Positions 7,001 to 58,870 of a stretch of DNA of 64,000 nucleotides are shown in pieces (the stretch's first letter is position 1; each line of letters opens with the position of its first letter). This stretch comes from Raillietiella orientalis (Eukaryota). The position numbers were made by a program, and so were the translations under genes. Below the pieces are notes generated by a model, which saw nothing but the letters and a program-made list of their open reading frames with translations, had not been told where the DNA came from and ran no database searches. The stretch spans positions 2,108,001-2,172,000 of the forward strand of contig JAYWIR010000004.1 in assembly GCA_036172245.1 (NCBI GenBank), written 5' to 3'.

Positions 7001-10000
7001 GAGTTGCATGGGCGCTGCGTGGTGAGTGCTCGGAGGGGAAGGAAAGGGGAAAAGCGGGAGCGTAATCGTCCCGCAACGATTGCGCCCGTCCCCGGAGGGA
7101 GAGGGGAGGAGGTGAAAGCGAAGACCTGTGTGCCTCCCGCTTGTGGCACAGCTCCTTCCCCTCTGTACCCTTCGGAGTGGAGCAGAGAGAAAGGGGGGAC
7201 AGGAGCGCGGAGTAGCCGCGGCAACGGAGGTAAACGGGAAGCGGCGAAAGAAGAGGGAGAGCAGAGTTTCCCCTGGAGGTGCGCTGCGTTGCGAAAGATC
7301 CGCCAGGTCGGGGAAGGAATCTCCTGCTCCCGCAGGAGGAGGATGCGCTCCCTCGCTATAGGAAGAGGAAGAAGAGAGGTTTCCCGTTTCCCACCTCTCG
7401 CATTCAGAAGAACTGCTCGCCCTAACCCAGGTCTCCCGCACAGGAAGAGCAGAGAGAGAAAGACAGGAAAAAAAACGAAGTCCAGTCCAAATCCAACCCT
7501 ACAATACAGCGGCGACATTTCTCTAAAGCGCTTCCAGTTGCCAACGGGGAAAACGAACCCTCAGGAAAGTTGACCAAAGTCATTATCGCCCCACGACGAA
7601 AGCGAAGCTCGGCGCCCTCGATGCAACGCCTGAAGCATCAACTGCTTCTCGGAGACCGGAGCTGGGTCGCCGATGGGACGAGCACCAGAAGACCGCGGCG
7701 CCGCGCTCTGGGAAGCGATGATCGGGCCTCCGACACCCCCAGTAGTCCTCCACGGAACGTTTGGAACTAGGGAGATTGCCGTGCGTCGGTTCGCCGACCT
7801 CCTTGCGAGCTACAAGCGGATCTTCTGCAGGCCCGAGGGCCACCACTCCTGGAAGAGGTGGTACCCCTTCCGGCGCCGCGGATCAGGTGGTCCTTCGAGA
7901 CACGAGAGAGCATCCGTGCAGCTTGGCTCGCCTTCCTTCTCGGAAGGAAGGCGAGCGAAGCTTCCGAAAAGTTCCCCGCGGGAACGACGAGCGCTGCCAT
8001 AGCCACTCCTTGGATCCCTCGCTGGAATAAAGAAACCCCATGCTGCCAAGGCAACGCGGCAGCCAGCGGATGCGACCACCCCTGCGATCGCGAGCCGCAG
8101 CTTGCACCCGGCAGCCCGAAGTCACTATGGGGGCGCGTGCAATCGCCATGCTCTACAGGCAAGAATTCTGCCGTCAAGTCGGCAGCACGTCAGGTGGTGG
8201 GTTGTGCATTGGGAGGTCCTGCGCCATCCCAGGCGCCACCAAACTTCAAGCAGGCGGGTGCAACCACGCTGCACTCTCTGAAGAGCTCGCGGTTATCTCC
8301 CCTCCCGTCCGAAAAATCGGAGGCAGAGGAGGAATTCAGGGCGCGGAAGGGGGCGTTGGCGGAGCGGCGGACGGGTCGCTGGAAGGGGCTGCTTTGCCGC
8401 AGAGGACCTTCCCCGAAGGGCTGCTGGTGTGTTGCTTTGCAGGCCATGCTGGACACGTGCGTGTCGCCCCTACTGCTGAACCTGGGAGCACGGGAGTTCC
8501 TCGAGCTCGAAGGTGAGTGCGAGGAGGGTGGGAAGCGAAGACGCTGCAAGCAGGAGGTCGCTTAGGCGTCAACAGGGTAAAGCAAAGGGGAATGAGCGAA
8601 CGAGGAGCCGTGCTCCCAGCTCTGCCTGTCCATCCTGCACCCCCCGTCTCCCAGCTTGCAAGACCCCCTTCGTCGCGATTACTTGGCTGGTCGACCGCTC
8701 ACCGCAGGACGACAATGCATGCTCGGAGGCAGCGGAAATTCCGCGCGTTACGCTAAGGCCGCGCCCTCCAGAAGCGCAGGCGACCCGATCCCACAATCGG
8801 GTTCCATGGGGCGGACTGCAAAACCCGGGATAGGCAACGCGTCCGATCCTACGCCCGAGATCGCCTCCCCTCCCTACTCCCCTCCTCTCAGTGCAGCTCT
8901 CCGGCTACGCTTAACTATCTGCCCAGCAGCCCGGACCCAACCGTTCCGTTCCTAGCGAATACATAAGGCGGAAACGAGCGGTAGGAAGCAGGGCAAGCCG
9001 GGCACGACCCTGCCCCACGCCGCCTGAAGGCGCGGCGCTCCACGACGAACCGCCTAGCGAAGGTTCCACCTTGCCCCGCGCTTTCCTTGGCAGGTCGCGG
9101 CGGCGCACGCAAGAGCAGACTACCGCCGGCCTCCGACTGCGAGCGACGCGGACGCGGACGACTCCGCAGCGGAGCTCCGGAGGGGTCGGCCGATCCGGGA
9201 CAGCGTAGCAGAACAAAACGTTCCTTCAAGGAAGGCTCGTGACTTCCTCCCGCGCTGGCCAAGCCATCCGCTTCGCGGCAGCCTCCCGGCCTCTTCCCGG
9301 CGCCGAACGCCGCGTCACCGCTGCCCGTATCCATGCACACCAGAGCAGTCCCCGCTCACGAGGCTGTGAGGCGTAATTATGACAACCACGTGGTCCCGCC
9401 CGGCAACGTGCAGTTGGTCACGGGAGCGACGTTCCCTGGGAAGTGGAAGCGATAGAAGACTCGTGCGGTGCGCGTGCGAGGCGGCCCCCTGCTTCCCGGG
9501 CGATACTCACCCGCACCCTGCTTCTGTTGCGCGGCTCTCCCGCTGCGCGTTCCCGTGGCGGCTGCCTGCGGCCCGCAGACGCACGTTGGAACGATACCCA
9601 CGTGACTTCACCCGCCCACCTTCGCGCGTGCGATCCCGTGCCTGCAAACGACGTGCACGGCGAACGTTCCACGAGAACGAGCGAGCGGCGGCGCTTCCCG
9701 TTCGCGCCTCGATTTCTACCGCTCGGCTGCTGCCTGCTGACGCTTCAAGGACGTCCGCAGACAACGGAACACCTGTCGGGGGCGACATCGGTGCGTGTCG
9801 TGGGTACCGACGCTACCTCTGCGTGCTCGTTCTCCAGGAAAGAGGGCACCCTACGATGCCAGGAAGGGTGTGTGGACGAAGGAGTCCGTTTCTCTCACGC
9901 GTGGGAACAGCTTCCTTATTCCCTCCGAAGGGATCCCCAGGAAGGCTCCAGTCCTCGTCTTTCGGAAAGGATGCCGCTTTCCTGTTACCCCTCTGGAGAG

Positions 10001-11723
10001 AAACCCGAAGGGTCGCTCCCCGAAGGAAGCACCTCTCTGGAGTGACAGCAACCACATCCCTGGTGCTCGACACGGGCTCCATCTTCACAATCGGAGGAAG
10101 AGGGACTCCGAAGGGAACCGGCCCCTAGTCCATTACCGGAAGGACCCCGGACGGTCCACTTCCGACCCCGAGCGCTCCAAGGGGGCACCCGGCATCCCGC
10201 TTCCCCCGTCAGAGACGCACATGAAACCCATGGGCCGACCAGAGTCTCATCTACACGGAACCCACGATGCACGCGTTCCTCCGGCGTGCATCCTGCACGT
10301 GCGGGGGAATTCGAACCCGCAACGCCACGCGCCGCGACCGCAGCCCAACGGCTACAAACGCGGGTCCGACGAACGGAGCGACCGGCTGCGATCCCGACGG
10401 GACGAGCGTTCCTCCAATTCCTCTCACTCTCTGTCCGTCCAGCGTTGGCCGAGGTCCGCGCTCCAAGTACTGTACGTCGGCAGGGAAACGGAGGGCACTG
10501 GCAGCGATGGAGCGCCCCCGATCTTCTGCGTTACCTTCCCTTTCGGGGACGACGGCTGCTTCTGCTGGCCCAGTGCGTGTCCGGGAAGCGCGCGCGCATG
10601 GACACGGGACAAGGAACCGCCTTGAAAAACGTTGCACAGTGCGTCGGAGAAACGGCATTTTCCTAGGCGCGCGCACGACCTGCAGGTGGTGAGCGCAAGC
10701 GGCAGAAGAGCGAGGGTGAGCGAAAGGCAGGCGGACAAGCGCGAAAAGACAGGAAGGGAAGAGAGAGGCGGGGGTGAAGGTGCGCGGCACGCTCCCGAAC
10801 TGCGCCAGCGGCACGCCCACAACGCTCCGCCCCTTTCAACTCCTCCAGCCCGTGCTCCCCTTTCCAGAGGACTTCTACCGACTGACGTGCTGGTCCCTGA
10901 CCTGCGGCGACCTCACGGACGACAAGCTGACCGAGGTGTGGAAAGCGATCTGGCAACTGGTGCTCATCTTGACGGTGACCTTCGCGGTCGGCTTCTACAT
11001 TTCGTGGGTGGTCTCCGAGTAGGTGACGCGCGCCCCTAGCAGCAAGGTGCACGCGCGCGGGCGACACGCCGCTGGAGGCAAGCAGTCGCGAGCGGACGCG
11101 CGATGGCGCAGCTCGCAGGAGCGTGGCGGAAAGGTCGAGTGGACGGAACGTGTCGTGGGGTTCGAAAGGATGGGTTGCCGCCCGTCCACCTCGACACCGA
11201 CCTGCCCGTGCCAAGTCCGCCTCCGCCCGGGCCACGGCAACCAGAGCTGGAGTGGGAGACGCTGCGACGCATGGCCTTGCCCGGGCTCTCTTCGGAAGGG
11301 TCTTTGGAAGTGAAGGATGCCGTCCTTCTCCTTCCTCCCGAAGCAGCCTCCGGCAGACGCGAGCCGCTCCGGCTGACAGCCCGTGCTTTGCAGACTCGTG
11401 AAGCTGGCGCTCGCGTACCGGAGGCACCGGATCGACTCAGCGGGCGCCCAGCGCCCTGACGGCGACGATCACCGTTCATGCGTCCCTGCCGCGCCACGGC
11501 ACCTCCCAAGGTGAGTCGATGAGCGCCGAGCGTCGACTTCACAGATCGACTCACCCTCCTTCCTAGGTCCAACCTAGAGGACGTCGAAGAATACTTCGAC
11601 GCCTCTTCCGATTTCCTCGAACACCTGTCCCCGAACGCCAACGACTACATCTACGTCACGTGCCCCAGGAATCTCGTGAACAAGTTCAAGTCCCTTCGCA
11701 GCAGTCCCTCCGTCCTGCTGTGA
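4084..11723 (+). CDS. Uncharacterised Cys-rich, C2H2-motif, single-pass membrane protein (7 exons, ~376 aa)
   Basis: Hand-spliced exons: 4084-4209, 4254-4463, 6722-7021, 8443-8512, 10868-11018, 11394-11510, 11567-11723. All intron phases are compatible and the total is 1131 nt. Protein order: hydrophobic N-terminus MRIKIALFLTSLLC, then CHRARS, LPVDCPLHPKRD, WNCGFCGKSFYDDSSLDHHHHRRH (C2H2), AVCLASFCDVLRC, CDPTQMEELHGRC, CVSPLLLNL, LTCWSLTC, then the TM segment IWQLVLILTVTFAVGFYISWVV. The Cys spacing matches my recollection of a conserved plant/invertebrate C2H2-like membrane protein family. The intron 2 donor is GC (gcaagt at 4464). An alternative in-frame ATG lies at 4024. Confidence 0.85.
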
Positions 11724-12119
11724 GACCGACGCAGGCACACCTCTCGCCAGCGCGCTCGTTTCCGCCTCGGTGAACGGGCGACGCCACTGCGGGTCGGCCG
11801 CCAGCACGGCAGGCGCCCTTCGCTCCAGCACGAAAAAGCGGAAGGTGCCTTCCACCAGCCGCTGCTTTGGGCACGCGTACGTCGGCGCCCGCCAACAGGA
11901 GGCGCGAACAAGCTGCTTCTTCCTCTCTTCGACGAAGCTTCCGAAAACACCCCCCTTCCCGTGCTCCGTCTCATCTGGCGCTCGACTGGCACCGTTCGCT
12001 CTTCACCCTTCCGAGTCCTCTCGTCATGCCAGCGCCACGCACCGAGACGACAGCCGTGACTGCTGGAAGCATGGCCGACACCAACTGCTCGCTCACGCAT
12101 TCCACGGACGAATGACGAC

Positions 12120-12125
12120 AATAAA
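12120..12125 (+). promoter_or_regulatory. Candidate polyadenylation signal (AATAAA) of the C2H2 membrane-protein gene
   Basis: First AATAAA I found, ~400 nt after the stop at 11723, in otherwise very GC-rich sequence. Confidence 0.55.
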
Positions 12126-15100
12126 CATGGCGCGTCCTTTTGTTCGAGGACGCCATCCGCGGCTCCTACCAGACACCTCACGGCATCGTCGGCCCGCCGA
12201 CGGCTTTCAGGAGGGTTGGGCGCAGTCGCTGATGGAGATCGCTGGCTGCTTCAGCAGCAACAGTCGATCGGCTCCATGGCATCCGCATCGAGTGAACGTG
12301 GCGGAAACACGACGGGCTGGCGTAGCCAACGCGAATCGTTCCCGCTGGGAAATCGCGCAGCAGACACGATTGCCGGCCACCGTGTCGTCCGTCGTGAGCA
12401 ACGTGAACAGCCAATCGTCCGTCGTCGTCTCCCTCGCTTCTTCCATCGCTCTTCACGGCAACCCCCAACACAAAGATCGAGAGCAACAACACACCTTCCC
12501 TTCCACGTAACCAAGAGATGCCCTTTGTGCTTGCCATCTGCAATGCGCCATTGCGTCGCGCGGCAGACGACAAGCAGCAAATGTTCCGGCGGCAGTCGAC
12601 AGCGGGCCCTGATCGTGAGCTGCTTCGCAAACGCTGCTCAGCGTCCCCACAGAGTGACGACGCGCAAATGCACAAATCCTTTCGTCCACTACCTTTCTCC
12701 TGGACGCGACGCGTCGCCGCCGTGCCGATGCCGAATGGGGAGCGCTGGTTTCTCTCGTTGCCTCGCTTGATCTTTCGGGGTTTGGGTTCCGGGGTCCAAA
12801 ATGGCTGCAAAATGGCTGCTGAGAACAACGCGAGAAGACGCAGGCGACAGACGGGCGACCGCACGACACGCGCTTGGGAATGCTGGGTCGAAGACTGCAA
12901 TTGCAAGGGCTGCATCCTTTCCATCCTGCTCTCGTTCCTCACAGCTCGCGCGCCCGCTTCCCGTCCGGGACGGCAGCGCATTTTCTCATCCACGCCCCAT
13001 CGGTCTTCGGGCGTCGAGCAACGGCTTGCAGTGCCGCCCATGCATTCTGTGCGGTTCCAATTCGCAATCCGCGGTCCAGCAAGACGAAACGGCAGCCCAT
13101 CCAACGTTCTCGAGGGACGCTGCAGTCTTGCAGGGTTCATCCCGCGTACACCCACGCGTGGAAAGGCGGAAAAGAGCATCCCGAGATCGAACATCCGGGG
13201 AGCGAATCTTATCGAACCGCCGAGGAGCACTCGGGTATGCTCCAAACAAAAGCTGCTCAGGTTCTCCAGTCGCAGTTTCCGGATAACCTTTCGTGCTTTC
13301 TCTTCGAACGCAGAAAAGGAAATTCAACTCGCTTGGTGCGCTTCCATTCCCCAGGACGATGTGTCGAAGGGAACGCCACGTCGCTGTCCCCAAGATCCAA
13401 ACAAAACCTGATTCATCGACGAGATGAGGACGTGAGCGCAGCGGGGCCTTCTACTCCCGAGAAGGCGGCTTCGCGCAGCCCCGAATGCGGGCCAAGGGCT
13501 TTCGACCTCTCGGCGCGAAACGTTCGTGCGCTTCTTGACCCGGCTGGAAAGCGAGGCGCAAACGGAGAAGAAACCGCCTCCGGAAATCACTTCGGACAGT
13601 GGGGACGAAAGGCGCTTCTTTCGCTTTCAACTTGGGGGTTGGAACTTCTTGGAGAAGAGGAAAACGCGTACGTACCCTCACGCAGAACGCGGGAAGAACG
13701 GAAAAGTCATCAAGAATAAGGCTGCTATGGAAGAGGGAAGAAACAGATTGGATGGACTGCCATCGCCTGAAGATTTTCTCCCCGTGCAACCAGAGTCGCG
13801 CGGATAGGCGCCCCATCAAAGGGTCCGAAATCGGTGCTGCACGGAAAGGTGGCTCGATGGAATGCCTCATCGTGCTATTGGCAAGGAGAGCTGTTCGACG
13901 TTTCTCCCTCCCCCCGTGTAGCTTTTCCGATCGCAAAGTTCCACGGACAATCAACGGTCACGTGCTGCCCCTGCCTTTCTCCCTTCTCTTTTTCTGCAGT
14001 CTGTCACATGTGCTTCTTCGTTTGCGCCGAATCTTGCGTAAGTCGCGACAAGGCGAAACATCGGATGCAACTCTGTCTGCGAGCGCATTTGCTTGATTGC
14101 ATTCCATGTGCACCCGAAGCAGCTTCAGCTGCACGTTGTGGTGCGACAAAATCGCGCGACCTCGTTCGAACGCTTCGATTCCGGAAAGAGCGCTGTCGAC
14201 TGAAACGCCTCGCGTCTTCCGAGGGGAAATCGGCTCGCCAGCAATACGGGGACAGCGACGGTTGACGCCACGGACGCCAACGAGCCCTGCCATGCTACGC
14301 ATTGCCTGTTCCTTGGCAGCCGAAACACGGAAATTCGGCGACACGTGGACCTGGGCGCTTCGAGCTGGGTGCGTTTCCAGAGATTCGATTCCTGGTTTGC
14401 CCATGCACGCACTCGCGATAACCTGCGGCGCGAGTCGCGCTGCCGTTCTCGCGTGAGACGCGAATGCCGAACGCTTCCGGCGATGTGGACGCGTTCATCC
14501 GTCCACGCTTCAGGAGTGTTCTCACGTGGCCGTGTTTGAAAACGCAACCGCACTTCTGCACGAATGGAATGCACTGCACTTGCCGATCGCGGAACCGCCG
14601 AGCGGCAGCCGACCCTTTTCCGGCAGGCGTCTGCCCTGCCTAGTCGAACGATAGCAGCGACTGATCGAGCTGCCTTGCCGCAGCCACCAGCCCACGTTCC
14701 CGACAAGCAACCTTCGGTGTGGTCAGCAGCAAAGAAAGGAAACTGAGACGAGGAAAGGTGGCAGTCAGGTCGTTGCGGAGATGCCCGCAAAGCCACGGTT
14801 CGACGAAGCACCGTTCGCCTAGGTCAACCCCGAACGACAGCGAATGCACGGGCTAGGTCATCGGGAAACGTTCACCGCTTCAGCACGTGACCTGTCCAAG
14901 CGAAAGAGGCGGCATCTTCGAGAGGGCAAGTCGACGTGGAGATTCCGCAGCGCTTACGGCGACCTCCGCTTGACGCGTCGGCGGCGTCCCGCGCGTTCGT
15001 TGCGAAGTCCCTTTCGAAGACCATCCGTCCGTCCACCGAAAATCCGTTGAAGCAAAAGATGCGACGACCGGGTCGTACCGTCGAACCACTTCGAAAGTAC

Positions 15101-18100: not shown

Positions 18101-20480
18101 CGGACTTTCGCTCGTCTGATAGCCATCGCCACCTCGTTAGCGACGCGCCTTATGCGCGTCCCCACTCTTCTTCGTCCGTAGGTTTCCTGCATCCCCTTTT
18201 CGTTTTTCGCGTCTGAGATGGCCACCATCTGTCTCGGGATCTGCGCGCCTCGCACGCCGCCTCGGACGTTCTCCCAGAGACCGCTCCAAATCTGCAGACT
18301 TGCCCGGCGGGCGCCAAGACGGCAAACTTTTCCGGGTGGTCACGTAGGCAGGAGCCATCCGGAGTGAAGACCTCGGTCGACACTCACGACGCTGGGACGC
18401 CACCTGGACTTGCGCGCGTGTGCTCCGTAGGAGGGCGGGCGACACTCGTGGATCCAACATCGAATTTCGCAGTTCCGGATCCCTGCCGTGGTCCGCCCGT
18501 CCTCGGATATGCAAGAGGCTGGGGAAGGAGGTGCACTCTCCGCGTCCCGTTTTTCGTCTTGGACGGCGACCTAGACCTTTTCTTGACGCTGGAATGAATG
18601 GAGCTGCAGCTCGTGTGTTGGGCATCTGCCTGCAGTCGAGGTAAACCTGTACTGCTGTAGGCCACCTGGTTCCCACCTGCACGTCATCTCGTCCAGCATG
18701 CCACGGAGACAGCGATGGTCGGACTCACGCTGCCTCATCCACTGCGGACTGCACATTTGGCGGGTGGCCAAGCTGGCCAGGAACAACGGATGGATCTACG
18801 GTAGTGCCTGGTTTCAGGCAACCGTGCCAAGGAGCCAAGCGACGAACAGGTTCGACGCTTCCTTTACTTGCGTGACAACAGCTGGACGCTCCAGGAGATC
18901 CTGCAAGATTCGGTGAGGAGTGAGAAGATTCGCTCGCGGCGCAGCTGCCGAGCGCTGGCGGGGTCCGCTCGCAATTCGCCGCTCCTTCTCACCGGGGGAA
19001 CGTCCAGCGAAAAGAGCCCAACGGATGGCTTCGCACCCTCGGGAATTCGGATGCCTTGCAAGCATCCCGCCCTCCTTCGTCTTCGCGTGATAGATGGGTG
19101 GCACGCTATGGATCGATTTTCAACCACCGTCGGCGCGCCTCCGCGACACGGATGTCGAACGCTCGGCGTCGACCTTGCCTTGGCCTAATTTGCCCGTTCG
19201 TCGCAATGACAACGCAGCCGTGTCGTACTTGCGTTCTCGCGCGTCACGTCAATAAGGCGATGTGCCGCGAGCGGAAGCACTGTTGGTCGCCAAGCTTCCT
19301 GTCCAACTTTTGGCGAAAGCCGTGTCATCCGGGGAGAGCTCGGAGAATCGCGCTTGGCGCTTCTCCGTCGATCCCGCCCGCATCGTTCCCGTTCGTGGAG
19401 CACGCGAACCGGGAAGCGGCTCTCGCGTCAAGCGGGATCGTTTGCGAACGGTTCCCTTGCAACCGCCGGTTGCTCAACAGCCCGGGACGTGTGGTGGTTC
19501 TCTCTCCTGTCGCAGGAGTCTCCCTTGCGAGAGCACGACTTGCCCGTGAGGGGATGAGGGCTGAGCCGCCGCTCGGCAAGCGGAGGAGAGGGAAGCGCAT
19601 CGCCGAGTTTCGACAAACTGGGGGTCCGGTGAGACGGGAAGCTGAGGGAAGGATCGTCTCCGTGTCGCGCGCGGACAATGCAGGAGAGCATGGAAATGCC
19701 GGCAGGAAAGTGCGCGCGCCCGAGCACGAGGGTTGCGCCCGCAGTTGTCGATGTGCAGGTGGCGCCATCCCCGGACCGCCTGTGGTCTCACCACGTGCAG
19801 ACATGCGTGTGCGGGGCTCCCTCCCTCCAAGCATCGCCGACCTGCTTCTACACTCGTCCGCGCTATTGACGTCATGTCGTCGCACAGCACTCCACATGGC
19901 CACCGAAATCGACGCGCGTCCTTCCTTTTCCCCTTCCCTGCTTTCCTCTCTCCTCGTCCTCTTCCTTCGAAAAGACAGAAGAGCGAGAAGAGGGAAAGGC
20001 GGTTCGCTTCCTTCGTCCGCGGCGCCGCGCTCTGCACCTCTGGAAAGGCGACCGTCCGAACGCGGTGTGGCGGGAACTCAAGAGCAGGGGACTGCGGAAC
20101 ACCACCAGCATGCCATCGCGACCGGCTGCCCCCGGACGGGAACGATTCCGAACGGCAGCCTGCGCAGCCTGCTTGGCGGGCGGAGGGTCGCCTGGCCAAC
20201 GTGCTCTTGCTGTCTGGATGCCAGGAACTTGCGGCAGCCTCGCCGCTCAGCACCGCTCCTCTAGCTCGCTGGTCCCGTTCGTGGGTGCCGAAGCACTGCG
20301 TCGGAGAGAGCATCCGCCTTCCGCAACGTTCGGCACGTCCCCTCTCGCCCGGCTCTTCCCGGAAGAGGGGCCATTCTTCGCCACGCATCCTGGCACCTGT
20401 GTGTCCTGCGGCTTGGCACACTGACGTTTGCTTTTGCGAACGAGGAAACGCGGACGCTTCGCGTTTCCCGTTTGCTTTGG

Positions 20481-21934: not shown

Positions 21935-22001
21935 GTCCGCGGCACAGCCCTGTGTCGTGCAGCGATCGGTTCGGCCATCGCAGCAGCATGCGGCGGAGAC
22001 T

Positions 22002-22097
22002 CGCCGCGCTTCCGATTCCTGCCCCGCGCCGCCGGCAGGCACCACCCCGCGCCGCGCTTCCGATTCCTGCCCCGCGCCGCCGGCAGGCACCACCCCG
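22002..22097 (+). repeat. Tandem duplication, 2 x 48 bp (single copy in arm B)
   Basis: cgccgcgcttccgattcctgccccgcgccgccggcaggcaccaccccg occurs twice. Confidence 0.95.
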
Positions 22098-29970: not shown

Positions 29971-29976
29971 AAAAAA
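29971..29976 (-). terminator. RNA polymerase III terminator (T6) of the tRNA-Gly gene
   Basis: TTTTTT lies 4 nt downstream of the discriminator base on the minus strand. Confidence 0.85.
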
Positions 29977-29980
29977 GGCA

Positions 29981-47800: not shown

Positions 47801-50800
47801 GTGGCGTCCCAGCGTCGTGAGTGTCGACCGAGGTCTTCACTCCGGATGGCTCCTGCCTACGTGACCACCCGGAAAAGTTTGCCGTCTTGGCGCCCGCCGG
47901 GCAAGTCTGCAGATTTGGAGCGGTCTCTGGGAGAACGTCCGAGGCGGCGTGCGAGGCGCGCAGATCCCGAGACAGATGGTGGCCATCTCAGACGCGAAAA
48001 ACGAAAAGGGGATGCAGGAAACCTACGGACGAAGAAGAGTGGGGACGCGCATAAGGCGCGTCGCTAACGAGGTGGCGATGGCTATCAGACGAGCGAAAGT
48101 CCGACGTTTTCGTCGGCGATGCCTGCGTAGACAACATCACGGGCGGCGGGAAGCTGACGGACCGCATCACGCGCAACCTGAATTTTCGGAGGTGACACCG
48201 GACACGTGAGTGAAGGCCGCGGACGCGCAGCAGCGCTCCGAGATCTCGCTGTGCGGAGAAGCCGGTGCATCCAACGAGGTGCAAGACGGAGGCCAGCGAT
48301 GGGAGAGCTGGCACGTTGGCGCGAGTCCATCTCGGGAGCGGACTGCAGTCCGAAGCAGGACCTGGTCTTGCGAACAGACGGAAGAGGGACGCGGGAAGTT
48401 TCCTGCCTGGGGGCTGCCGAGCAGGAGTGAGCCCAAAGAAGGAGGAGGTGATCGCGGTCAACTCCGGGGCAGTGTTTCCACCAGGTCACACTGGGAAGTG
48501 TTTGCTGTGCAGAATGGAAATTTCGCGAGGGAATCGTCCGGAATTTCCGTCGGGGCAGCGCAGTGACGCCACTTGCGCGTGTTCCGGTGGAGCCCTGCGC
48601 CCGCTAAATTCTCCGAAAGGAATGCTCGCAGGGAAGTCAGGGGAGAGGGAAGGGAACAAAAAAGGTACCAACAAGTTTCAGAAGTAAGCGAATCGGATTC
48701 CTGAGTGCTTGCGCGTTTCCTCTGCATGCTCTCAAGGCAAGAAGGGTGCAGGCACCGGCTTCTTCCGGTTGTTCCTCGTGTGCGACCATCTCTCTCGAGG
48801 CGATGCTTAGGAACGAGGAAACAAAGGGGAGGGCTGCTTCCCTGTTGTCACGTGAGGCCTGTGCCGTCGGCTCCTCATGCCGCCCCCATTGCGTGGATGC
48901 AGCGCAGAGCGGCGGTCGTCACGGCGGCATACATCCCGTCACGCGTGAGGAGGCGTCCGAAAGAGACGTTCGGGCGGTCTTCCGAGAACTTCAGGTCAGG
49001 GACATGTTCGAACGTCCCCGCGAGAACCGGAGTGCAACGCACTCCAGAAGCAGGCGAGGCAAGGTTCCTCCCTCGCCACCGAACCTGTCGCACTGTGGCG
49101 ACCCGTACACGTTTCCTGGTCCAGGGATGGAGGCGTGAATCGCATGGGACGGCGCAAAGAGGCGGTCGCCACGATGAGACGTGCCACGCATCTGGGGAAG
49201 CATGGAGACATACGCGAACGCCAGAGCAAGGCGAGCGGCACGCTTTGCTGCACTCACTGCAATGGTGGCTACACACCTATTTCGTCAGTACGACGCGGAG
49301 CTTCCCCTCGCAGTGGGGAGTTTGCTCCTTCGCAAACGGAAGAAAACTTCCACGCCTTCATTGCTGAAAGCGCGACAGAAAGTTCGACTCCCATTGTCCA
49401 GGCCCTCGTCCGGGACATCCGCTTTGAAGCGCTACCAGTGCGGCACACGAATGAACAGAGGTCAACCAGAGTCATCTTGCAGGAGGAACTCCAACCCACC
49501 ACGCACTTCGTCGATTCGTTTCGGAGTATTCGAACCCGCGTGCATGGCACCACGAGCGGAGGGGACCGTAACCACACGGCCTCCGACGCGCGCACCATCA
49601 AGACTTGTTGCAACGGGATTCCACGCAAGCACATCTGTCCAGCGGACAAGTCGTTCGGGAAGAGTGGAAAGGTCAGCCAGTTGACGCGCCAGCAACGCAA
49701 CCGCTTTTTCTTCTTTTTTTTTTCCTGCCATCTCGCAGTGAATTTGCCATCGTTCGGGCTAATGGCTATCCCGGCTTTCCATAGAGGACTACGTCGTTGC
49801 AGCAAAGAGGGGGCTTTTCTGTGCCGACCAGGTTTCCCTCGGGCAGTCCATGATCTCCTTCGGCGAGCAGGAAGGGAGAGTTCGGACGCGACCCGTACGA
49901 ACAAGGGCATGAGTTGCGTGTTGGGGCCGTGCAATCGGAAGGGCGAGCAGGAAGTCTTCCGGGAGCTCGCGATTCGGCGGCGGACCAAATCAGGCAGAAG
50001 ACGTACGCGCTGCAGCGTACGGGGAAGACCCTGGGAAGGAGCACGCTCAGGAAGACGGCACGAAAACCCCACCAGGATGCAGAGCAAATTGGTTGGAAAG
50101 GCACCGCGCGCGGACGACGACGGGACCCGTTCGTGGCGCCATCGTCCATCGCCCGTCGCCGTCGCCACACGAAGGCTACGTCGGAACGGGTGTCTCCGGC
50201 TGCGAACGCCGTCTCAACCCCCCAGCGTCCCTACAATACCCATTCAGGCAGGTGAAGCGACGCAGCCGGTGGCTGCGGCGGATGCTTCCCGTAACCACGT
50301 GGAGGGACACCTTGCAGCCCTTCCGCGGAAGGCGCCGGTCCGGATGTGGCGAGATGGTCAGCCTCCTGCCAGCACGCGGCGGACGGTTGTGCTGGGACCA
50401 CACAGCCGGTTCGGCCGTTAACTACCTCCGAGGAAGCGCGCTGTTGCGAAAACGAATGCTTCGCACTCTCTTCCAGTCACCTAGCAGCAGGAAGGCGATC
50501 CTCCCGCGAGCTACCTCTCGCCTTCGCGTACGGGAAGTGGGACGGAGCCCAAGAAGCGGAAGTGTCCCGATGGGCGATGCCCTCTTGGTTTTGCGGAAGA
50601 CGGAAAGAGCCTCTCTTGTTGCATGAGCTGCTGCATCCGATCGGTGCGCAAGGAACGGTTCAGTAGCGGAAGCTGGGGAGTACAGATTGCCGGGAGCGCA
50701 TCACCTGGATAGTGGGTCGGTAAAGGCCAACTTTCGGCACTCTCTTTTGCGGTGTTGTTCTGGGTGCCGCCGCCGTATCTTCGGATGGCCAGCGTCGTGC

Positions 50801-53800
50801 AAGTTGCCGCACGTGATCGCGAGCCGGAAGCCTGGAAACTCCGACGTCTCGGAAATCGCCACCCAGTTCGTGGATTCGAAGGCGATAAGACCTCCTCCTG
50901 GCGATATCGCAGAGACTCGAAAGACTGCGCTGATGCATCCGCACACCAAGGGGCATGTCGAACAAGAGTTACGCGTGGGAAAGTCTCCCAAGTGCAAACT
51001 CTGGACGGGGCAGGACGTGTAGCTGAAGGTGGTCGGTACGGCCATCGCCTCTCCCATCTCCCAACAAGTCGATCTCCAACGAGGACCATCTTCTAGAAGA
51101 TCCGTACTTTCGAAGTGGTTCGACGGTACGACCCGGTCGTCGCATCTTTTGCTTCAACGGATTTTCGGTGGACGGACGGATGGTCTTCGAAAGGGACTTC
51201 GCAACGAACGCGCGGGACGCCGCCGACGCGTCAAGCGGAGGTCGCCGTAAGCGCTGCGGAATCTCCACGTCGACTTGCCCTCTCGAAGATGCCGCCTCTT
51301 TCGCTTGGACAGGTCACGTGCTGAAGCGGTGAACGTTTCCCGATGACCTAGCCCGTGCATTCGCTGTCGTTCGGGGTTGACCTAGGCGAACGGTGCTTCG
51401 TCGAACCGTGGCTTTGCGGGCATCTCCGCAACGACCTGACTGCCACCTTTCCTCGTCTCAGTTTCCTTTCTTTGCTGCTGACCACACCGAAGGTTGCTTG
51501 TCGGGAACGTGGGCTGGTGGCTGCGGCAAGGCAGCTCGATCAGTCGCTGCTATCGTTCGACTAGGCAGGGCAGACGCCTGCCGGAAAAGGGTCGGCTGCC
51601 GCTCGGCGGTTCCGCGATCGGCAAGTGCAGTGCATTCCATTCGTGCAGAAGTGCGGTTGCGTTTTCAAACACGGCCACGTGAGAACACTCCTGAAGCGTG
51701 GACGGATGAACGCGTCCACATCGCCGGAAGCGTTCGGCATTCGCGTCTCACGCGAGAACGGCAGCGCGACTCGCGCCGCAGGTTATCGCGAGTGCGTGCA
51801 TGGGCAAACCAGGAATCGAATCTCTGGAAACGCACCCAGCTCGAAGCGCCCAGGTCCACGTGTCGCCGAATTTCCGTGTTTCGGCTGCCAAGGAACAGGC
51901 AATGCGTAGCATGGCAGGGCTCGTTGGCGTCCGTGGCGTCAACCGTCGCTGTCCCCGTATTGCTGGCGAGCCGATTTCCCCTCGGAAGACGCGAGGCGTT
52001 TCAGTCGACAGCGCTCTTTCCGGAATCGAAGCGTTCGAACGAGGTCGCGCGATTTTGTCGCACCACAACGTGCAGCTGAAGCTGCTTCGGGTGCACATGG
52101 AATGCAATCAAGCAAATGCGCTCGCAGACAGAGTTGCATCCGATGTTTCGCCTTGTCGCGACTTACGCAAGATTCGGCGCAAACGAAGAAGCACATGTGA
52201 CAGACTGCAGAAAAAGAGAAGGGAGAAAGGCAGGGGCAGCACGTGACCGTTGATTGTCCGTGGAACTTTGCGATCGGAAAAGCTACACGGGGGGAGGGAG
52301 AAACGTCGAACAGCTCTCCTTGCCAATAGCACGATGAGGCATTCCATCGAGCCACCTCCACCACCCAACGTAACAACGTGGGACCATCGAGCCACCTTTC
52401 CGTGCAGCACCGATTTCGGACCCTTTGATGGGGCGCCTATCCGCGCGACTCTGGTTGCACGGGGAGAAAATCTTCAGGCGATGGCAGTCCATCCAATCTG
52501 TTTCTTCCCTCTTCCATAGCAGCCTTATTCTTGATGACTTTTCCGTTCTTCCCGCGTTCTGCGTGAGGGTACGTACGCGTTTTCCTCTTCTCCAAGAAGT
52601 TCCAACCCCCAAGTTGAAAGCGAAAGAAGCGCCTTTCGTCCCCACTGTCCGAAGTGATTTCCGGAGGCGGTTTCTTCTCCGTTTGCGCCTCGCTTTCCAG
52701 CCGGGTCAAGAAGCGCACGAACGTTTCGCGCCGAGAGGTCGAAAGCCCTTGGCCCGCATTCGGGGCTGCGCGAAGCCGCCTTCTCGGGAGTAGAAGGCCC
52801 CGCTGCGCTCACGTCCTCATCTCGTCGATGAATCAGGTTTTGTTTGGATCTTGGGGACAGCGACGTGGCGTTCCCTTCGACACATCGTCCTGGGGAATGG
52901 AAGCGCACCAAGCGAGTTGAATTTCCTTTTCTGCGTTCGAAGAGAAAGCACGAAAGGTTATCCGGAAACTGCGGCTGGAGAACCTGAGCAGCTTTTGTTT
53001 GGAGCATACCCGAGTGCTCCTCGGCGGTTCGATAAGATTCGCTCCCCGGATGTTCGATCTCGGAATGCTCTTTTCCGCCTTTCCACGCGTGGGTGTACGC
53101 GGGATGAACCCTGCAAGACTGCAGCGTCCCTCGAGAACGTTGGATGGGCTGCCGTTTCGTCTTGCTGGACCGCGGATTGCGAATTGGAACCGCACAGAAT
53201 GCATGGGCGGCACTGCAAGCCGTTGCTCGACGCCCGAAGACCGATGGGGCGTGGATGAGAAAATGCGCTGCCGTCCCGGACGGGAAGCGGGCGCGCGAGC
53301 TGTGAGGAACGAGAGCAGGATGGAAAGGATGCAGCGCTTGCAATTGCAGTCTTCGACCCAGCATTCCCAAGCGCGGTCGCCCGTCTGTCGCCTGCGTCTT
53401 CTCGCGTTGTTCTCAGCAGCCATTTTGCAGCCATTTTGGACCCCGGAACCCAAACCCCGAAAGATCAAGCGAGGCAACGAGAGAAACCAGCGCTCCCCAT
53501 TCGGCATCGGCACGGCGGCGACGCGTCGCGTCCAGGAGAAAGGTAGTGGACGAAAGGATTTGTGCATTTGCGCGTCGTCACTCTGTGGGGACGCTGAGCA
53601 GCGTTTGCGAAGCAGCTCACGATCAGGGCCCGCTGTCGACTGCCGCCGGAACATTTGCTGCTTGTCGTCTGCCGCGCGACGCAATGGCGCATTGCAGATG
53701 GCAAGCACAAAGGGCATCTCTTGGTTACGTGGAAGGGAAGGTGTGTTGTTGCTCTCGATCTTTGTGTTGGGGGTTGCCGTGAAGAGCGATGGAAGAAGCG

Positions 53801-56800
53801 AGGGAGACGACGACGGACGATTGGCTGTTCACGTTGCTCACGACGGACGACACGGTGGCCGGCAATCGTGTCTGCTGCGCGATTTCCCAGCGGGAACGAT
53901 TCGCGTTGGCTACGCCAGCCCGTCGTGTTTCCGCCACGTTCACTCGATGCGGATGCCATGGAGCCGATCGACTGTTGCTGCTGAAGCAGCCAGCGATCTC
54001 CATCAGCGACTGCGCCCAACCCTCCTGAAAGCCGTCGGCGGGCCGACGATGCCGTGAGGTGTCTGGTAGGAGCCGCGGATGGCGTCCTCGAACAAAAGGA
54101 CGCGCCATGTTTATTGTCGTCATTCGTCCGTGGAATGCGTGAGCGAGCAGTTGGTGTCGGCCATGCTTCCAGCAGTCACGGCTGTCGTCTCGGTGCGTGG
54201 CGCTGGCATGACGAGAGGACTCGGAAGGGTGAAGAGCGAACGGTGCCAGTCGAGCGCCAGATGAGACGGAGCACGGGAAGGGGGGTGTTTTCGGAAGCTT
54301 CGTCGAAGAGAGGAAGAAGCAGCTTGTTCGCGCCTCCTGTTGGCGGGCGCCGACGTACGCGTGCCCAAAGCAGCGGCTGGTGGAAGGCACCTTCCGCTTT
54401 TTCGTGCTGGAGCGAAGGGCGCCTGCCGTGCTGGCGGCCGACCCGCAGTGGCGTCGCCCGTTCACCGAGGCGGAAACGAGCGCGCTGGCGAGAGGTGTGC
54501 CTGCGTCGGTCTCACAGCAGGACGGAGGGACTGCTGCGAAGGGACTTGAACTTGTTCACGAGATTCCTGGGGCACGTGACGTAGATGTAGTCGTTGGCGT
54601 TCGGGGACAGGTGTTCGAGGAAATCGGAAGAGGCGTCGAAGTATTCTTCGACGTCCTCTAGGTTGGACCTAGGAAGGAGGGTGAGTCGATCTGTGAAGTC
54701 GACGCTCGGCGCTCATCGACTCACCTTGGGAGGTGCCGTGGCGCGGCAGGGACGCATGAACGGTGATCGTCGCCGTCAGGGCGCGGGGCGCCCGCTGAGT
54801 CGATCCGGTGCCTCCGGTACGCGAGCGCCAGCTTCACGAGTCTGCAAAGCACGGGCTGTCAGCCGGAGCGGCTCGCGTCTGCCGGAGGCTGCTTCGGGAG
54901 GAAGGAGAAGGACGGCATCCTTCACTTCCAAAGACCCTTCCGAAGAGAGCCCGGGCAAGGCCATGCGTCGCAGCGTCTCCCACTCCAGCTCTGGTTGCCG
55001 TGGCCCGGGCGGAGGCGGACTTGGCACGGGCAGGTCGGTGTCGAGGTGGACGGGCGGCAACCCATCCTTTCGAACCCCACGACACGTTCCGTCCACTCGA
55101 CCTTTCCGCCACGCTCCTGCGAGCTGCGCCATCGCGCGTCCGCTCGCGACTGCTTGCCTCCAGCGGCGTGTCGCCCGCGCGCGTGCACCTTGCTGCTAGG
55201 GGCGCGCGTCACCTACTCGGAGACCACCCACGAAATGTAGAAGCCGACCGCGAAGGTCACCGTCAAGATGAGCACCAGTTGCCAGATCGCTTTCCACACC
55301 TCGGTCAGCTTGTCGTCCGTGAGGTCGCCGCAGGTCAGGGACCAGCACGTCAGTCGGTAGAAGTCCTCTGGAAAGGGGAGCACGGGCTGGAGGAGTTGGA
55401 AGGGGCGGAGCGTTGTGGGCGTGCCGCTGGCGCAGTTCGGGAGCGTGCCGCGCACCTTCACCCCCGCCTCTCTCTTCCCTTCCTGTCTTTTCGCGCTTGT
55501 CCGCCTGCCTTTCGCTCACCCTCGCTCTTCTGCCGCTTGCGCTCACCACCTGCAGGTCGTGCGCGCGCCTAGGAAAATGCCGTTTCTCCGACGCACTGTG
55601 CAACGTTTTTCAAGGCGGTTCCTTGTCCCGTGTCCATGCGCGCGCGCTTCCCGGACACGCACTGGGCCAGCAGAAGCAGCCGTCGTCCCCGAAAGGGAAG
55701 GTAACGCAGAAGATCGGGGGCGCTCCATCGCTGCCAGTGCCCTCCGTTTCCCTGCCGACGTACAGTACTTGGAGCGCGGACCTCGGCCAACGCTGGACGG
55801 ACAGAGAGTGAGAGGAATTGGAGGAACGCTCGTCCCGTCGGGATCGCAGCCGGTCGCTCCGTTCGTCGGACCCGCGTTTGTAGCCGTTGGGCTGCGGTCG
55901 CGGCGCGTGGCGTTGCGGGTTCGAATTCCCCCGCACGTGCAGGATGCACGCCGGAGGAACGCGTGCATCGTGGGTTCCGTGTAGATGAGACTCTGGTCGG
56001 CCCATGGGTTTCATGTGCGTCTCTGACGGGGGAAGCGGGATGCCGGGTGCCCCCTTGGAGCGCTCGGGGTCGGAAGTGGACCGTCCGGGGTCCTTCCGGT
56101 AATGGACTAGGGGCCGGTTCCCTTCGGAGTCCCTCTTCCTCCGATTGTGAAGATGGAGCCGTGTCGAGCACCAGGGATGTGGTTGCTGTCACTCCAGAGA
56201 GGTGCTTCCTTCGGGGAGCGACCCTTCGGGTTTCTCTCCAGAGGGGTAACAGGAAAGCGGCATCCTTTCCGAAAGACGAGGACTGGAGCCTTCCTGGGGA
56301 TCCCTTCGGAGGGAATAAGGAAGCTGTTCCCACGCGTGAGAGGAACGGACTCCTTCGTCCACACACCCTTCCTGGCATCGTAGGGTGCCCTCTTTCCTGG
56401 AGAACGAGCACGCAGAGGTAGCGTCGGTACCCACGACACGCACCGATGTCGCCCCCGACAGGTGTTCCGTTGTCTGCGGACGTCCTTGAAGCGTCAGCAG
56501 GCAGCAGCCGAGCGGTAGAAATCGAGGCGCGAACGGGAAGCGCCGCCGCTCGCTCGTTCTCGTGGAACGTTCGCCGTGCACGTCGTTTGCAGGCACGGGA
56601 TCGCACGCGCGAAGGTGGGCGGGTGAAGTCACGTGGGTATCGTTCCAACGTGCGTCTGCGGGCCGCAGGCAGCCGCCACGGGAACGCGCAGCGGGAGAGC
56701 CGCGCAACAGAAGCAGGGTGCGGGTGAGTATCGCCCGGGAAGCAGGGGGCCGCCTCGCACGCGCACCGCACGAGTCTTCTATCGCTCCCACTTCCCAGGG

Positions 56801-58870
56801 AACGTCGCTCCCGTGACCAACTGCACGTTGCCGGGCGGGCTTCTCGACGTCAGCCGGAGGCCGGGCGGGACCACGCGGTTGTCATAATTACGCCTCACAG
56901 CCTCGTGCGCGGGGACTGCTCTGGTGTGCATGGATACGGGCAGCGGTGACGCGGCGATCGGCGCCGGGAAGAGGCCGGGAGGCTGCCGCGAAGCGGATGG
57001 CTTGGCCAGCGCGGGAGGAAGTCACGAGCCTTCCTTGAAGGAACGTTTTGTCCTGCTACGCTGTCCCGGATCGGCCGACCCCTCCGGAGCTCCGCCGCGG
57101 ACTCGTGCGCGTCCGCGTCGCTCGCAGTCGGAGGCCGGCGGTAGTCCGCTCTTGCGTGCGCCGCCGCGACCTGCCAAGGGAAGCGCGGGGCAAGGTGGAA
57201 TTTTCGCTAGGCGGTTCGTCGTGGAGCGCCGCGCCTTCAGGCGGCGCGGGGCAGGGTAGTGCCCGGCTTGCCCTGCTTCCTACCGCTCGTTTCCGCCTTA
57301 TGTATTCGCTGGGAACGGAACGGACGGGTCTGGGGTGCTCGGCGTATAGGGAAGCGTAGCTCGTTGGCTGCACTGAGAGGAGGGGAGTAGGGAGGGGAGG
57401 CGATCTCGGGCGTAGGGTCGGACGCGTTGCTTACCCCGGGTTTTGCAACTGGCTCGGTGGACTCCAATCGTGGGATCGCGCACCGCCGGAGTACGCGTCC
57501 TGCGAGCACGCATTGCCTTCCCGCAGCGGGCGGTCGACCAGCCAACCAACCGGGACTAAAGGGCTCGTCTGAGTCGGGAGACGAGGGATGCAGGAAAGAG
57601 GGCTGTCCGTGCTCCCCATTCTCACATTTCCAGAGTGTGTTGGGGGGTGGGTGGGCGGGCGATCCACCTCGGAGCCTCGAATGGGCTCGCTGTTCCAGAA
57701 GGGGTGCTCGAACCGCTCCTCTTAGAGCGGGCGTCCTTGCCCCTCAGCCCTGCTGCAGGAACTGGAGAGGGAGTTGCCGAGCAGCGGCGGCTGCCTCACT
57801 TTGGGCCCGACCACCGGGCACGCGCCACTGGGAGCGGAGTGAAGAGGATAGGGGAATCGAACCGAGTTAGTGGAAAGCCAAGAGGGAGTAAGGAGTGACT
57901 AACCCTCGTAATAAGGAGGGGAAGTCTCCGCCAAGACTTGTGCGGAGGTCTGCTGTCAGGAGCAGCCTCCAGCGCGGAGAAGAGGGAGTTCCGCGTTGCG
58001 CTGGCGGCTGCTTCGAGCCGTGCAGAGTGGCCCGCGGCTATAAGACTCACGGAAAATGAGCAAGGAACAGACGGGATGCACAGAAGGTCCCCTTCCTTTT
58101 CGCGGCGACGGCATTTCTTCTCCGCCCTTCCCCCACGTGCCGTTCTGTAGGTGGCACCTTCCAGCTGGACGCGCGAGGTCGCTTCCCCATCAACCGCAGA
58201 TTTCTTCCAAGAGGGTCGGGAAGAGGGCCTCGAAGGGCCAACGAGCGGCGTGGCGCATCGCATCTCCGTCGGGCTGCCCCGAACGGCAGCGGCAGCAGCC
58301 GTCGCTCCTCGGTGGCGTCTTCTGCTGCTGCTCGACGTTCCTTCCTTCCCCCTTTCTCGTTTCCCCACCTCAAGTAGTCCCGTTTGCCTAGTGCCCCCCA
58401 CTCGGGGTCGACGCCAATCTGCGACCTGCGGGAGGCTGTTAGCATCGGGTTATCCCTTCCTGCACATCCTGGATCCCCTGCGCCGGCAAGCTGATTCTCT
58501 CGGCCACGCCTCCTTCGCCGTCTGAGAAGGGCTGGACCGATCCACCAGTTGTCGGGATGAGCCCGTCCGGGAGCCGCCGCCCGTTGGATGCGAGAGCCCG
58601 TCGGACGGAATGGGAGGGACGGGCACTTCTGGGAGCGCGTACCCTCCTCCTCCCCTTCCATACCTTCCCTTCCTCGGACGCCGAAGCTTCATCCTTGCTT
58701 CCCACCCCGCTCTCCTCGCACTCACCTTCCAGCTCGAGGAGCTCCCGCGCTCCCGGGTCCAGCAGCAGGAACGACACGCATGCATCCAGGATGGTTTGCA
58801 AAGCAACACATCAGCAACCCTTCGGGGAAGGCTCTCCGGAAAAGCAGCCCCTTCCGTGACCCCTCCGCCG
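44841..58870 (-). repeat. Arm B of the ~14 kb inverted segmental duplication
   Basis: Mirror of 8365-22862. It lacks the 1451-bp LINE segment and one 48-bp tandem unit. It has extra 40-bp (~52345-52384) and 30-bp (~56840-56869) segments and about 1 kb of unmatched sequence at ~57600-58690. Confidence 0.97.
54512..58795 (-). pseudogene. 5'-truncated duplicate (exons 4-7) of the C2H2 membrane-protein gene
   Basis: Exons 5-7 (55367-55217, 54841-54725, 54668-54512) are nearly identical to arm A, with one Q>P change seen in exon 6. The exon 4 copy (58795-58726) is diverged (TILDACVSFLLLDPGARELLELE vs AMLDTCVSPLLLNLGAREFLELE) and its acceptor reads tttgcAA instead of tttgcAG. I found no exon 1-3 homologs beyond it. 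Confidence 0.85.

What the first reader, a model, noticed from the sequence alone, without database searches (positions are those of the whole stretch)
8365..58870. ~14 kb inverted duplication with a homogenised core and diverged margins: candidate self-correcting palindrome-like locus
Seen: from ~14100 to 19900 the arms are essentially identical; I noticed one substitution (17827 vs 48377) and the six-frame ORFs mirror almost exactly. From ~9300 outward to 8365 identity falls steadily until only blocks such as exon 4 align. A single recent duplication would give roughly uniform identity. Established: arm-to-arm gene conversion maintains palindrome arms, for example on mammalian Y chromosomes. 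Inference: this is an old duplication whose centre is repeatedly homogenised by intrachromosomal gene conversion. Crossover between the arms would also invert the 22 kb spacer carrying the tRNA, RNF144 and pepsin-like genes.
Basis: partly seen in the sequence, partly recalled or inferred. Interest (0 to 1): 0.82.

Follow-up and report, generated by a model that had tools for sequence, protein, structure and literature searches.

The report
Old inverted duplication, repeatedly homogenised
A 14-kb stretch of arthropod DNA is present twice in mirror orientation, old and diverged at its edges but almost letter-identical inside, which is the footprint of the two copies repeatedly overwriting each other; this is a known process, seen here in an unusually clean example that no sequencing reads were available to confirm.

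Summary
The near-identical core is wider than reported (9451-22843: 17 differences in 11,884 columns). Divergence is high at both ends and beside arm-specific insertions, falling from 10% to under 0.1% with distance from them. A decayed LINE found only in arm A, with an eroded target-site duplication, sits between 99-100% identical DNA. One recent duplication does not give this; an old duplication homogenised by several arm-to-arm conversion tracts does. Arms are 62% GC against 34-40%, but single-copy DNA beside them is also GC-rich, so the GC island probably predates the duplication. CpG excess, in contrast, follows the paired DNA closely. Arm B holds only exons 4-6 of a six-exon gene, exon 4 decayed, so no backup function is evident. 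Spacer inversion and the physical reality of both arms are untested: no reads were listed, no genome is held. The pepsin-like gene was not confirmed. The scan's unchecked notes report several similar GC-rich inverted duplications elsewhere in this genome. New member of a known kind.

The parts
8357..22862 (+). Arm A of the inverted duplication (14.5 kb including an A-only LINE)
44841..58878 (-). Arm B (14.0 kb including about 1.1 kb found only in B)
22863..44840 (.). Single-copy spacer, 21,978 bp; GC 0.40 from 24501 on
9451..22843 (+). Homogenised core of arm A: 17 mismatches in 11,884 columns, 4 small indels, plus the LINE gap; longest difference-free run 3,980 bp; GC 0.62, CpG o/e 1.16
8357..9450 (+). 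Outer graded margin: strata of 18.4%, 4.4% and 1.8% divergence
   Evidence: binary segmentation
22844..22862 (+). Inner eroded edge: 3 mismatches in 19 bp, next to 743 bp with none
20496..21932 (+). 5'-truncated, decayed non-LTR retrotransposon present only in arm A; degenerate 9-14-bp target-site duplication at 20482-20495 and 21933-21946, single site in arm B at 45709-45722
57600..58690 (-). About 1.1 kb of intron-4 sequence found only in arm B (GC 0.64); separates the exon-4 block from the rest of the arm
4084..11723 (+). Six-exon gene for a 337-aa protein with one C2H2-like finger and a hydrophobic stretch; exons 4084-4209, 4254-4463, 6722-7021, 8443-8512, 10868-11018, 11567-11723; only exons 4-6 lie in the arm
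   Evidence: open frame and splice sites; exon 2 and the start of exon 3 match relatives in metagenome contigs; Atlas hit 0.92 to an unnamed eukaryotic cluster; exons 1 and 4-6 rest on frame, splice sites and codon pattern only
58726..58795 (-). Decayed copy of exon 4 in arm B: acceptor AG lost, 13 differences in 69 nt
55217..55367 (-). Exact copy of exon 5 in arm B
54512..54668 (-). Exact copy of exon 6 in arm B
4800..8356 (.). Single-copy GC-rich ramp outside arm A (GC 0.51-0.66 in 200-bp steps; CpG o/e 0.85 over 5500-8356)
   Evidence: no counterpart found beyond arm B
22863..24550 (.). Single-copy GC-rich zone inside arm A's inner end (GC 0.55, CpG o/e 0.80), holding a second LINE piece; arm B has no such zone (GC 0.41 in 43841-44840)

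Best explanation
About 14.5-15.5 kb from the middle of an already GC-rich, roughly 20-kb domain (4800-24550) was copied long ago, in reverse orientation, to a site 22 kb away. The copy took only exons 4-6 of the resident gene. Since then the two arms have repeatedly served as templates for each other in homologous repair, so the interior is overwritten by multi-kilobase non-reciprocal tracts. Tracts rarely reach a point where homology stops (the two ends, the 1.1-kb intron-4 difference, the LINE), so the old divergence survives only there. Copying favours G and C, which keeps CpG high exactly where the arms can pair. Shown: the architecture, the divergence profile, the age markers, the composition steps. 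Inferred: gene conversion as the process, its repeated action (at least one tract on each side of the LINE plus older strata), the direction A to B of the original copy, GC bias of the repair, and that the island is older than the duplication. Inversion of the spacer by crossover follows from established recombination geometry but is not shown.
For: (1) Divergence falls with distance from the nearest break in homology: 15/146 (0-25 bp), 37/385, 24/548, 26/928, 8/1000, 1/1999, 3/4000, 3/3852 (4-7 kb). (2) Both ends carry old divergence: 82/445 at the outer end, 3/19 at the inner end (P 2.8e-6 at the core rate; the 19-bp extension is not chance, P 7e-8). (3) The A-only insert is a LINE (58% identity, E 6.6e-42, to reverse-transcriptase protein P0272); its right border is the family's 3' end; it has a 7-bp gap against both other copies and an in-frame stop; its two target-site copies agree at 10 of 14 positions and B's single site differs from both (10/14 and 12/14). 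Yet the flanks are 98.8% and 99.7% identical (574/581 and 860/863). A single recent copy A to B would have carried the LINE, and B to A would have erased it. (4) B's exon 4 has decayed (about 8 amino-acid-changing and 5 silent changes on 49.7 and 19.3 sites, my count; acceptor lost) while exons 5-6 are exact. (5) CpG o/e is 1.16 in paired DNA against 0.85 in single-copy DNA of similar GC (42 and 20 windows, P 1.2e-6; 15 windows and P 2.7e-5 without the LINE); the best step falls at 8700, the homology boundary; it dips in the LINE and recovers in the 930-bp inner block; within the one gene, paired introns exceed unpaired ones (P 0.0014). (6) GC island older than the pair: single-copy exon 3 has GC3 73/96, like exons 5-6 (85/98, P 0.066) and unlike exons 1-2 (44/108, P 5e-7); a simple model lets arm-to-arm bias lift GC only to 0.36-0.50 in the time implied by the margins. 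(7) The same edge pattern is published for Drosophila duplicates (PMC2588116).
Against: One assembled haplotype only: no reads listed, no genome held, no close relative found (best lifeguard hits 68-70%), so no change could be polarised. Arm differences in the margin show no GC asymmetry (35 against 41). The LINE three-copy test for GC bias is weak: GC* 0.62/0.50/0.36 on all 667 columns but not significant on the 324 well-aligned ones. The target-site duplication was recognised after the fact and its last five bases may be element-derived. The distance bins pool edges that behave very differently (20 bp at the inner end, about 800 bp at the outer end), and the edges were chosen after seeing the alignment. 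Substitutions cluster near indels for other reasons too (recalled, not tested). CpG differences could reflect methylation rather than repair bias. The margin divergence is only a minimum age.
Confidence: 0.68

Rival explanations
1. Same process, but far older and once wider: the arms formerly covered the whole GC island, arm-to-arm GC-biased conversion itself drove AT-rich DNA to about 62% GC, and the single-copy GC-rich zones are former arm now decaying after deletions in B.
For: GC ramps smoothly from 0.44 to 0.65 towards arm A, and B has a shorter ramp (0.41-0.56 at 59000-60300). CpG, the fastest-decaying signal, is already lower in unpaired zones. A bias of 0.71-0.76 gives equilibrium 0.62, close to the 0.70 bias and GC* 60.9% reported for primate X palindromes (PMC8981503), which also reports arm sequence becoming spacer or flank.
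Against: No remnant of A 4000-8356 or of exons 1-3 beyond arm B, at DNA or protein level. B's inner end meets AT-rich DNA at once while A's has a 1.7-kb GC-rich zone. The LINE looks never to have been paired yet is 60% GC. The model needs 0.4-1.2 neutral substitutions per site per lineage against about 0.1 recorded in the margins. Unchecked notes describe GC islands without duplication in this genome.
Confidence: 0.14
2. Assembly artefact: two haplotypes mis-joined, or a more diverged repeat whose interior was collapsed by consensus or polishing.
For: No reads could be checked. Core divergence of 0.07-0.14% with a LINE present/absent resembles allelic difference. 13301-19900 (1/6600) is cleaner than 9451-13300 (6/3840; P 0.012), as expected in the part farthest from unique anchors. 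Divergence near unique anchors on a 500-bp scale is also what short-read polishing would leave.
Against: All four junctions are distinct and both ends are eroded, which an exact mis-join would not make. A simple inversion polymorphism cannot supply both inner junctions (reasoning from the junctions). 22101-22843, beside a unique junction and within 930 bp of the LINE, has 0/743 differences (95% upper bound 0.4%), so identity is real where reads would anchor. The arms keep private SNVs and 9-, 40- and 48-bp indels. The CpG step at the homology boundary is a long-term substitution signal.
Confidence: 0.1
3. One recent event: a young 13-kb copy or template switch laid over a small older duplicate at the exon-4 end, with the LINE gained or lost afterwards and extra substitutions arising next to indels.
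For: 10.5 kb forms a single stratum in segmentation (7/10,527). Very long single tracts occur in palindromes (over 9 kb; PMC3723533).
Against: The LINE is decayed and B's empty site has private changes, so it is older than the core identity. There are two intermediate strata at the outer end, and an eroded inner end 14 kb away.
Confidence: 0.08

Closest known systems
Conversion-maintained palindromes of primate X and Y chromosomes (PMC8981503: abstract, introduction, part of methods and passages read; PMC3723533: passages)
   Same: Inverted arms over 99% identical around a unique spacer; arms richer in GC than flanks; multi-kilobase tracts; GC excess larger than conversion alone explains over the dated interval, so GC-rich DNA may be prone to form or keep palindromes.
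   Different: Here the GC contrast is about 22-28 points (0.62 against 0.34-0.40) versus about 5 points (46.3% against 41.2%); arms are 14 kb; the host is an arthropod-like genome of unknown chromosome type; only a gene fragment is duplicated; conversion and inversion were shown there with orthologs and population samples, here only inferred.
Drosophila duplicated blocks with edge degeneration, e.g. Amy and Bob (Osada and Innan 2008, PMC2588116; passages read)
   Same: High identity in the middle, raised paralog divergence at the edges, explained by failing conversion near the limits of homology.
   Different: Those blocks hold complete genes and were dated with orthologs; the quoted Amy conversion rate is about 100 times the mutation rate, while an equilibrium reading here gives about 3,000 (1,400-7,400). 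Here internal indels act as further edges and the block is strongly GC- and CpG-enriched.
Palindromic collinear blocks in a springtail genome (PMC5490193; passages read)
   Same: Gene-scale inverted duplications in an arthropod.
   Different: That paper found a wide range of synonymous divergence and concluded against concerted evolution of those blocks; this locus shows homogenisation at the nucleotide level.
gBGC-linked GC heterogeneity in insect genomes (PMC10978632; passages read)
   Same: GC-rich domains that affect introns, intergenic DNA and third codon positions alike.
   Different: That work treats chromosome-scale, allelic recombination; here the domain is about 20 kb and overlaps an inverted repeat.

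Membership tests
Conversion-maintained large inverted repeats (palindromes) | Long inverted arms, over 99% identical, around a unique spacer | tested here: met
   117 mismatches in 12,858 aligned columns overall, 17 in 11,884 in the core; spacer 21,978 bp
Conversion-maintained large inverted repeats (palindromes) | Duplication much older than arm identity implies (internal markers) | tested here: met
   Both ends 16-18% diverged; decayed arm-specific LINE between near-identical flanks; dead exon 4 beside exact exons 5-6
Conversion-maintained large inverted repeats (palindromes) | Arms more alike within a species than to orthologous arms | not testable with these tools
   No close relative, genome or run available
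Conversion-maintained large inverted repeats (palindromes) | GC higher in arms than in flanks | tested here: met
   0.62 against 0.345, 0.40 and 0.378; but adjoining single-copy zones are 0.55-0.65
Conversion-maintained large inverted repeats (palindromes) | Polarised replacements biased to G and C | tested here: inconclusive
   No outgroup; LINE three-copy proxy significant on all columns, not on filtered ones; CpG step is indirect support
Conversion-maintained large inverted repeats (palindromes) | Spacer inversions by crossover between arms | not testable with these tools
   No reads listed
Sex-chromosome ampliconic palindromes in the strict sense | Complete gene copies on both arms | tested here: not met
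   Arm B lacks exons 1-3 and has a dead exon 4; 0 of 96 frames of 85 aa or more in 11700-22900 reached a Pfam cut-off; codon periodicity marks only exons 5 and 6 in the arm
Sex-chromosome ampliconic palindromes in the strict sense | Location on a sex chromosome or non-recombining region | not testable with these tools
   No chromosome context
Duplicated blocks with edge degeneration (Osada and Innan) | U-shaped paralog divergence | tested here: met
Duplicated blocks with edge degeneration (Osada and Innan) | Ortholog divergence not U-shaped | not testable with these tools
   No ortholog DNA close enough
Giant transposon with long terminal inverted repeats | Arms are the self-contained ends of an inserted element, with a transposase | tested here: not met
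   The host gene's frame runs across arm A's outer end; similarity fades rather than ending sharply there; no transposase family in the arm or spacer frames scanned
Non-LTR retrotransposon (the arm-A insert) | Homology to an RT-bearing ORF, 5' truncation, family 3' end, target-site duplication | tested here: met
   the clade (Tx1/L1-like by recalled motifs) was not tested

The most novel reading that the evidence does not exclude
This arthropod has exceptionally active, GC-favouring recombination between nearby inverted copies, strong enough to drive AT-rich DNA to its conversion equilibrium near 62% GC and to rewrite the codons of resident genes; its many GC-rich islands would then be present or fossil inverted-repeat pairs, with CpG excess marking which DNA still pairs. 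That would make ectopic, not allelic, conversion a main builder of isochore-like domains in an animal genome.
Probability: 0.12. Interest if true: 0.72.

Novelty: new member of a known kind. Interest (0 to 1): 0.38.

Why it matters
It is a clean single-sequence record of concerted evolution in a large inverted repeat outside vertebrate sex chromosomes: an old arm-specific LINE dates the duplication, and each break in homology shows how close conversion tracts can come. It separates two signals that are usually confounded, bulk GC (wider than the arms) and CpG excess (confined to paired DNA), which bears on the open question raised for primate palindromes of whether GC-rich DNA forms palindromes or palindromes make DNA GC-rich. 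If the unchecked notes on other such loci in this genome hold, the question becomes testable genome-wide. As a single locus it is a known process with no evident function.

Tried and rejected
Whole genome: none held. Look-alike stretches in other scanned genomes: nothing to show; word search of findings: 0. Rfam at gathering scores: only the tRNA in 64 kb. Pfam: 0 of 96 arm frames, 0 of 133 frames from 36000-44900 and 57600-64000 (133 of 136 listed, the others partly scanned) and 0 of 71 window frames from 22900-36000 and the LINE reached a curated cut-off. Remnants of exons 1-3 or of A 4000-8356 beyond arm B: none above shuffled controls (9 DNA pieces, 3 exons); the B-only intron piece scored 46 against a null maximum of 36 on A's left flank with only 3 shuffles, which I do not count as homology. 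Full-length orthologs of the gene: not retrieved (none; swamped by multi-finger proteins); 6 metagenome loci matched exon 2, 4 of 6 also the start of exon 3, 0 of 6 exons 4-6, lifeguard or the IBR exon, so exon 4 could not be polarised and gene order could not be compared. Pepsin-like gene: no support from Pfam or PDB; short broken pieces at 40.5-41.1 kb on the minus strand resemble the pepsin C-lobe only by recalled motifs. My first codon comparison of exon 4 was offset by three bases and is replaced; the global alignments of the outer margin misplace exon 4 and are replaced. Rejected: giant transposon ends; hidden RNA-gene or protein-gene array in the arm; uniform recent duplication. Seven literature searches listed no report of a CpG step tracking paired DNA in an arthropod inverted repeat; I saw listings only for most hits, the library lacks most subscription journals, and I opened no supplements.
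Full report
Observation. A self-comparison of the window finds one large inverted pair in three collinear blocks. Local alignments fix the ends at 8357-22862 (arm A) and 44841-58878 (arm B), with a 21,978-bp spacer. The near-identical core is wider: 9451-22843 has 17 mismatches in 11,884 columns and four small indels. Two large differences interrupt the arms: 1.44 kb only in A (20496-21932) and about 1.1 kb only in B (57600-58690).

Host and content. The window is from an arthropod-like animal: the lifeguard gene at its left end matches insects, crustaceans and a chelicerate at about 62-72%, none closer. The arm's outer third holds exons 4-6 of a six-exon gene at 4084-11723. The six exons give an open 337-codon frame with GT-AG introns and one GC-AG intron. 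Exon 2 matches 6 of 6 metagenome loci and the start of exon 3 matches 4 of 6; exons 1 and 4-6 rest on frame, splice sites and codon pattern. Arm B has exact copies of exons 5 and 6, a decayed exon 4 with its acceptor lost, and no trace of exons 1-3. The remaining 11 kb shows no Pfam family at cut-off in 96 frames and no Rfam family. The spacer holds tRNA-Gly and an IBR-domain exon; a pepsin-like gene was not confirmed.

Age against identity. Segmentation gives strata of 18.4% (82/445), 4.4% (10/228), 1.8% (5/279) and 0.07% (7/10,527) from the outer end inward, then 0.9% (13/1379) around the LINE and inner end. The inner end has its own eroded edge, 3 of 19 bases, after 743 identical ones; this is neither the core rate (P 2.8e-6) nor a chance extension (P 7e-8). 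Pooled over all breaks in homology, divergence falls from 10% within 100 bp to 0.8% at 0.5-1 kb and under 0.1% beyond; the edges were picked after seeing the alignment and differ in width. The A-only insert is a 5'-truncated LINE: its 5' part is 58% identical to an RT-bearing protein, its right border is the 3' end shared with two other copies in the window, it carries a 7-bp gap and an in-frame stop, and its target-site copies agree at 10 of 14 positions while B's empty site differs from both. The DNA on either side is 98.8% and 99.7% identical between arms. A single recent copy would have either carried or erased the LINE, and a recent deletion in B would not leave private changes at the site. 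At least two separate recent tracts, and older ones at the outer margin, are therefore needed. That is inference from one sequence, not observation of conversion. If the core were at mutation-conversion equilibrium, conversion would run about 3,000 times the mutation rate (1,400-7,400); a few recent long tracts would look the same.

Composition. The core is 62% GC against 34.5%, 40% and 37.8% in the left flank, spacer and right flank. GC3 in the gene rises from 44/108 in exons 1-2 to 176/216 in exons 3-6 (P 3.5e-13). But GC-rich DNA extends beyond the arms: 4800-8356, the LINE, 22863-24550 and the B-only intron are single-copy and 55-65% GC, and single-copy exon 3 is nearly as GC3-rich as exons 5-6. 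B's inner end drops straight to 41%. A simple model shows that arm-to-arm bias, even complete, reaches only 0.36-0.50 in the time the margins record. So the island most likely came first and B is the pasted copy; unchecked notes on GC islands without duplication in this genome moved me to test this. CpG behaves differently: o/e 1.16 in paired DNA against 0.85 in single-copy DNA of similar GC (P 1.2e-6), with the best step at 8700, a dip in the LINE, recovery in the inner block and a fall at 23000 and 57500; paired introns exceed unpaired introns of the same gene (P 0.0014). The flanks are CpG-depleted (0.51, 0.61) with TpG/CpA excess, which suggests methylation-driven decay (established chemistry, not tested). 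GC-favouring repair between arms restoring fast-decaying CpG is the simplest reading; lower methylation of paired DNA is an alternative. Direct tests of bias were weak: margin differences are symmetric (35 against 41) and the three-LINE comparison is significant only before filtering.

Artefact. No reads were listed and no genome is held, so mis-assembly is not excluded. Against it: four distinct junctions, both ends eroded, private SNVs and indels kept, zero differences in 743 bp beside a unique junction, and a CpG step at the boundary. For it: core divergence is in the allelic range and the cleanest part is the farthest from anchors. I put it at 0.10.

Comparison. It works like primate X and Y palindromes (PMC8981503, read in part; PMC3723533, passages) and shows the edge decay described for Drosophila duplicates (PMC2588116, passages). 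It is not an ampliconic palindrome in the strict sense: no complete gene sits on both arms and chromosome type is unknown. The GC contrast is four to five times that of primate X palindromes, whose authors also found conversion insufficient to explain it. Inverted duplications in an arthropod are reported in PMC5490193 (passages), without concerted evolution. The scan's own unchecked notes list several other GC-rich or homogenised inverted duplications in this genome; these are leads, not support. No supplements were opened.

Verdict. New member of a known kind; interest 0.38, mostly for the clean internal clock and the CpG step.

Noticed in passing
window 36872-37328 and 41385-41841: A second, small inverted pair inside the spacer: 457 bp, 4 mismatches (3 of them within 21 bp of the ends), GC 0.44, close to background; no Pfam family between the copies. 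A possible control for a near-identical repeat without GC enrichment.
   Followed up: partly
window 21140-21935, 23100-23935, 32440-33200: Three 3' pieces of one LINE family, about 60-70% identical, all on the plus strand, whose GC follows position: 0.59 in the island, 0.54 at its edge, 0.51 in the spacer.
   Followed up: partly
window 6722-7021: Exon 3 is 100 codons, against about 45 in a metagenome relative (L002:2922-3060); the extra 50-odd residues are rich in Ala, Arg, Pro, Glu and Ser and GC-rich at all codon positions (GC12 0.62).
   Followed up: partly
window 9394, 13846, 12860, 22002-22049: The small arm differences sit in short direct repeats: a 30-bp extra in B flanked by 9-bp repeats, a 40-bp extra in B flanked by 14-bp repeats, a 48-bp tandem duplication in A; this resembles microhomology-mediated break repair (recalled).
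   Followed up: no
window 4210-4253 and 4464-6721: The gene model needs a 44-nt first intron and a GC-AG second intron; neither is confirmed by RNA.
   Followed up: no
window 2-532: 3' 176 codons of a lifeguard (Bax inhibitor-1 family) gene without introns; GC3 61/170.
   Followed up: partly
window 39599-40189 (-): A 197-codon open frame with Thr/Pro/Trp-rich repeats and no Pfam family, just downstream of the broken pieces that resemble an aspartic protease by eye.
   Followed up: partly
window 23950-24550: A sharply bounded GC-rich patch (0.53-0.64) ends the island on the spacer side; no Pfam family.
   Followed up: partly
window 18587-18930 (+): A stretch that reads like decayed coding sequence by eye, identical in both arms; no Pfam family and no codon periodicity.
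   Followed up: partly
window 29980-30052 (-): Single tRNA-Gly(CCC) with a GC-richer neighbourhood (0.47 in 29001-30000).
   Followed up: no
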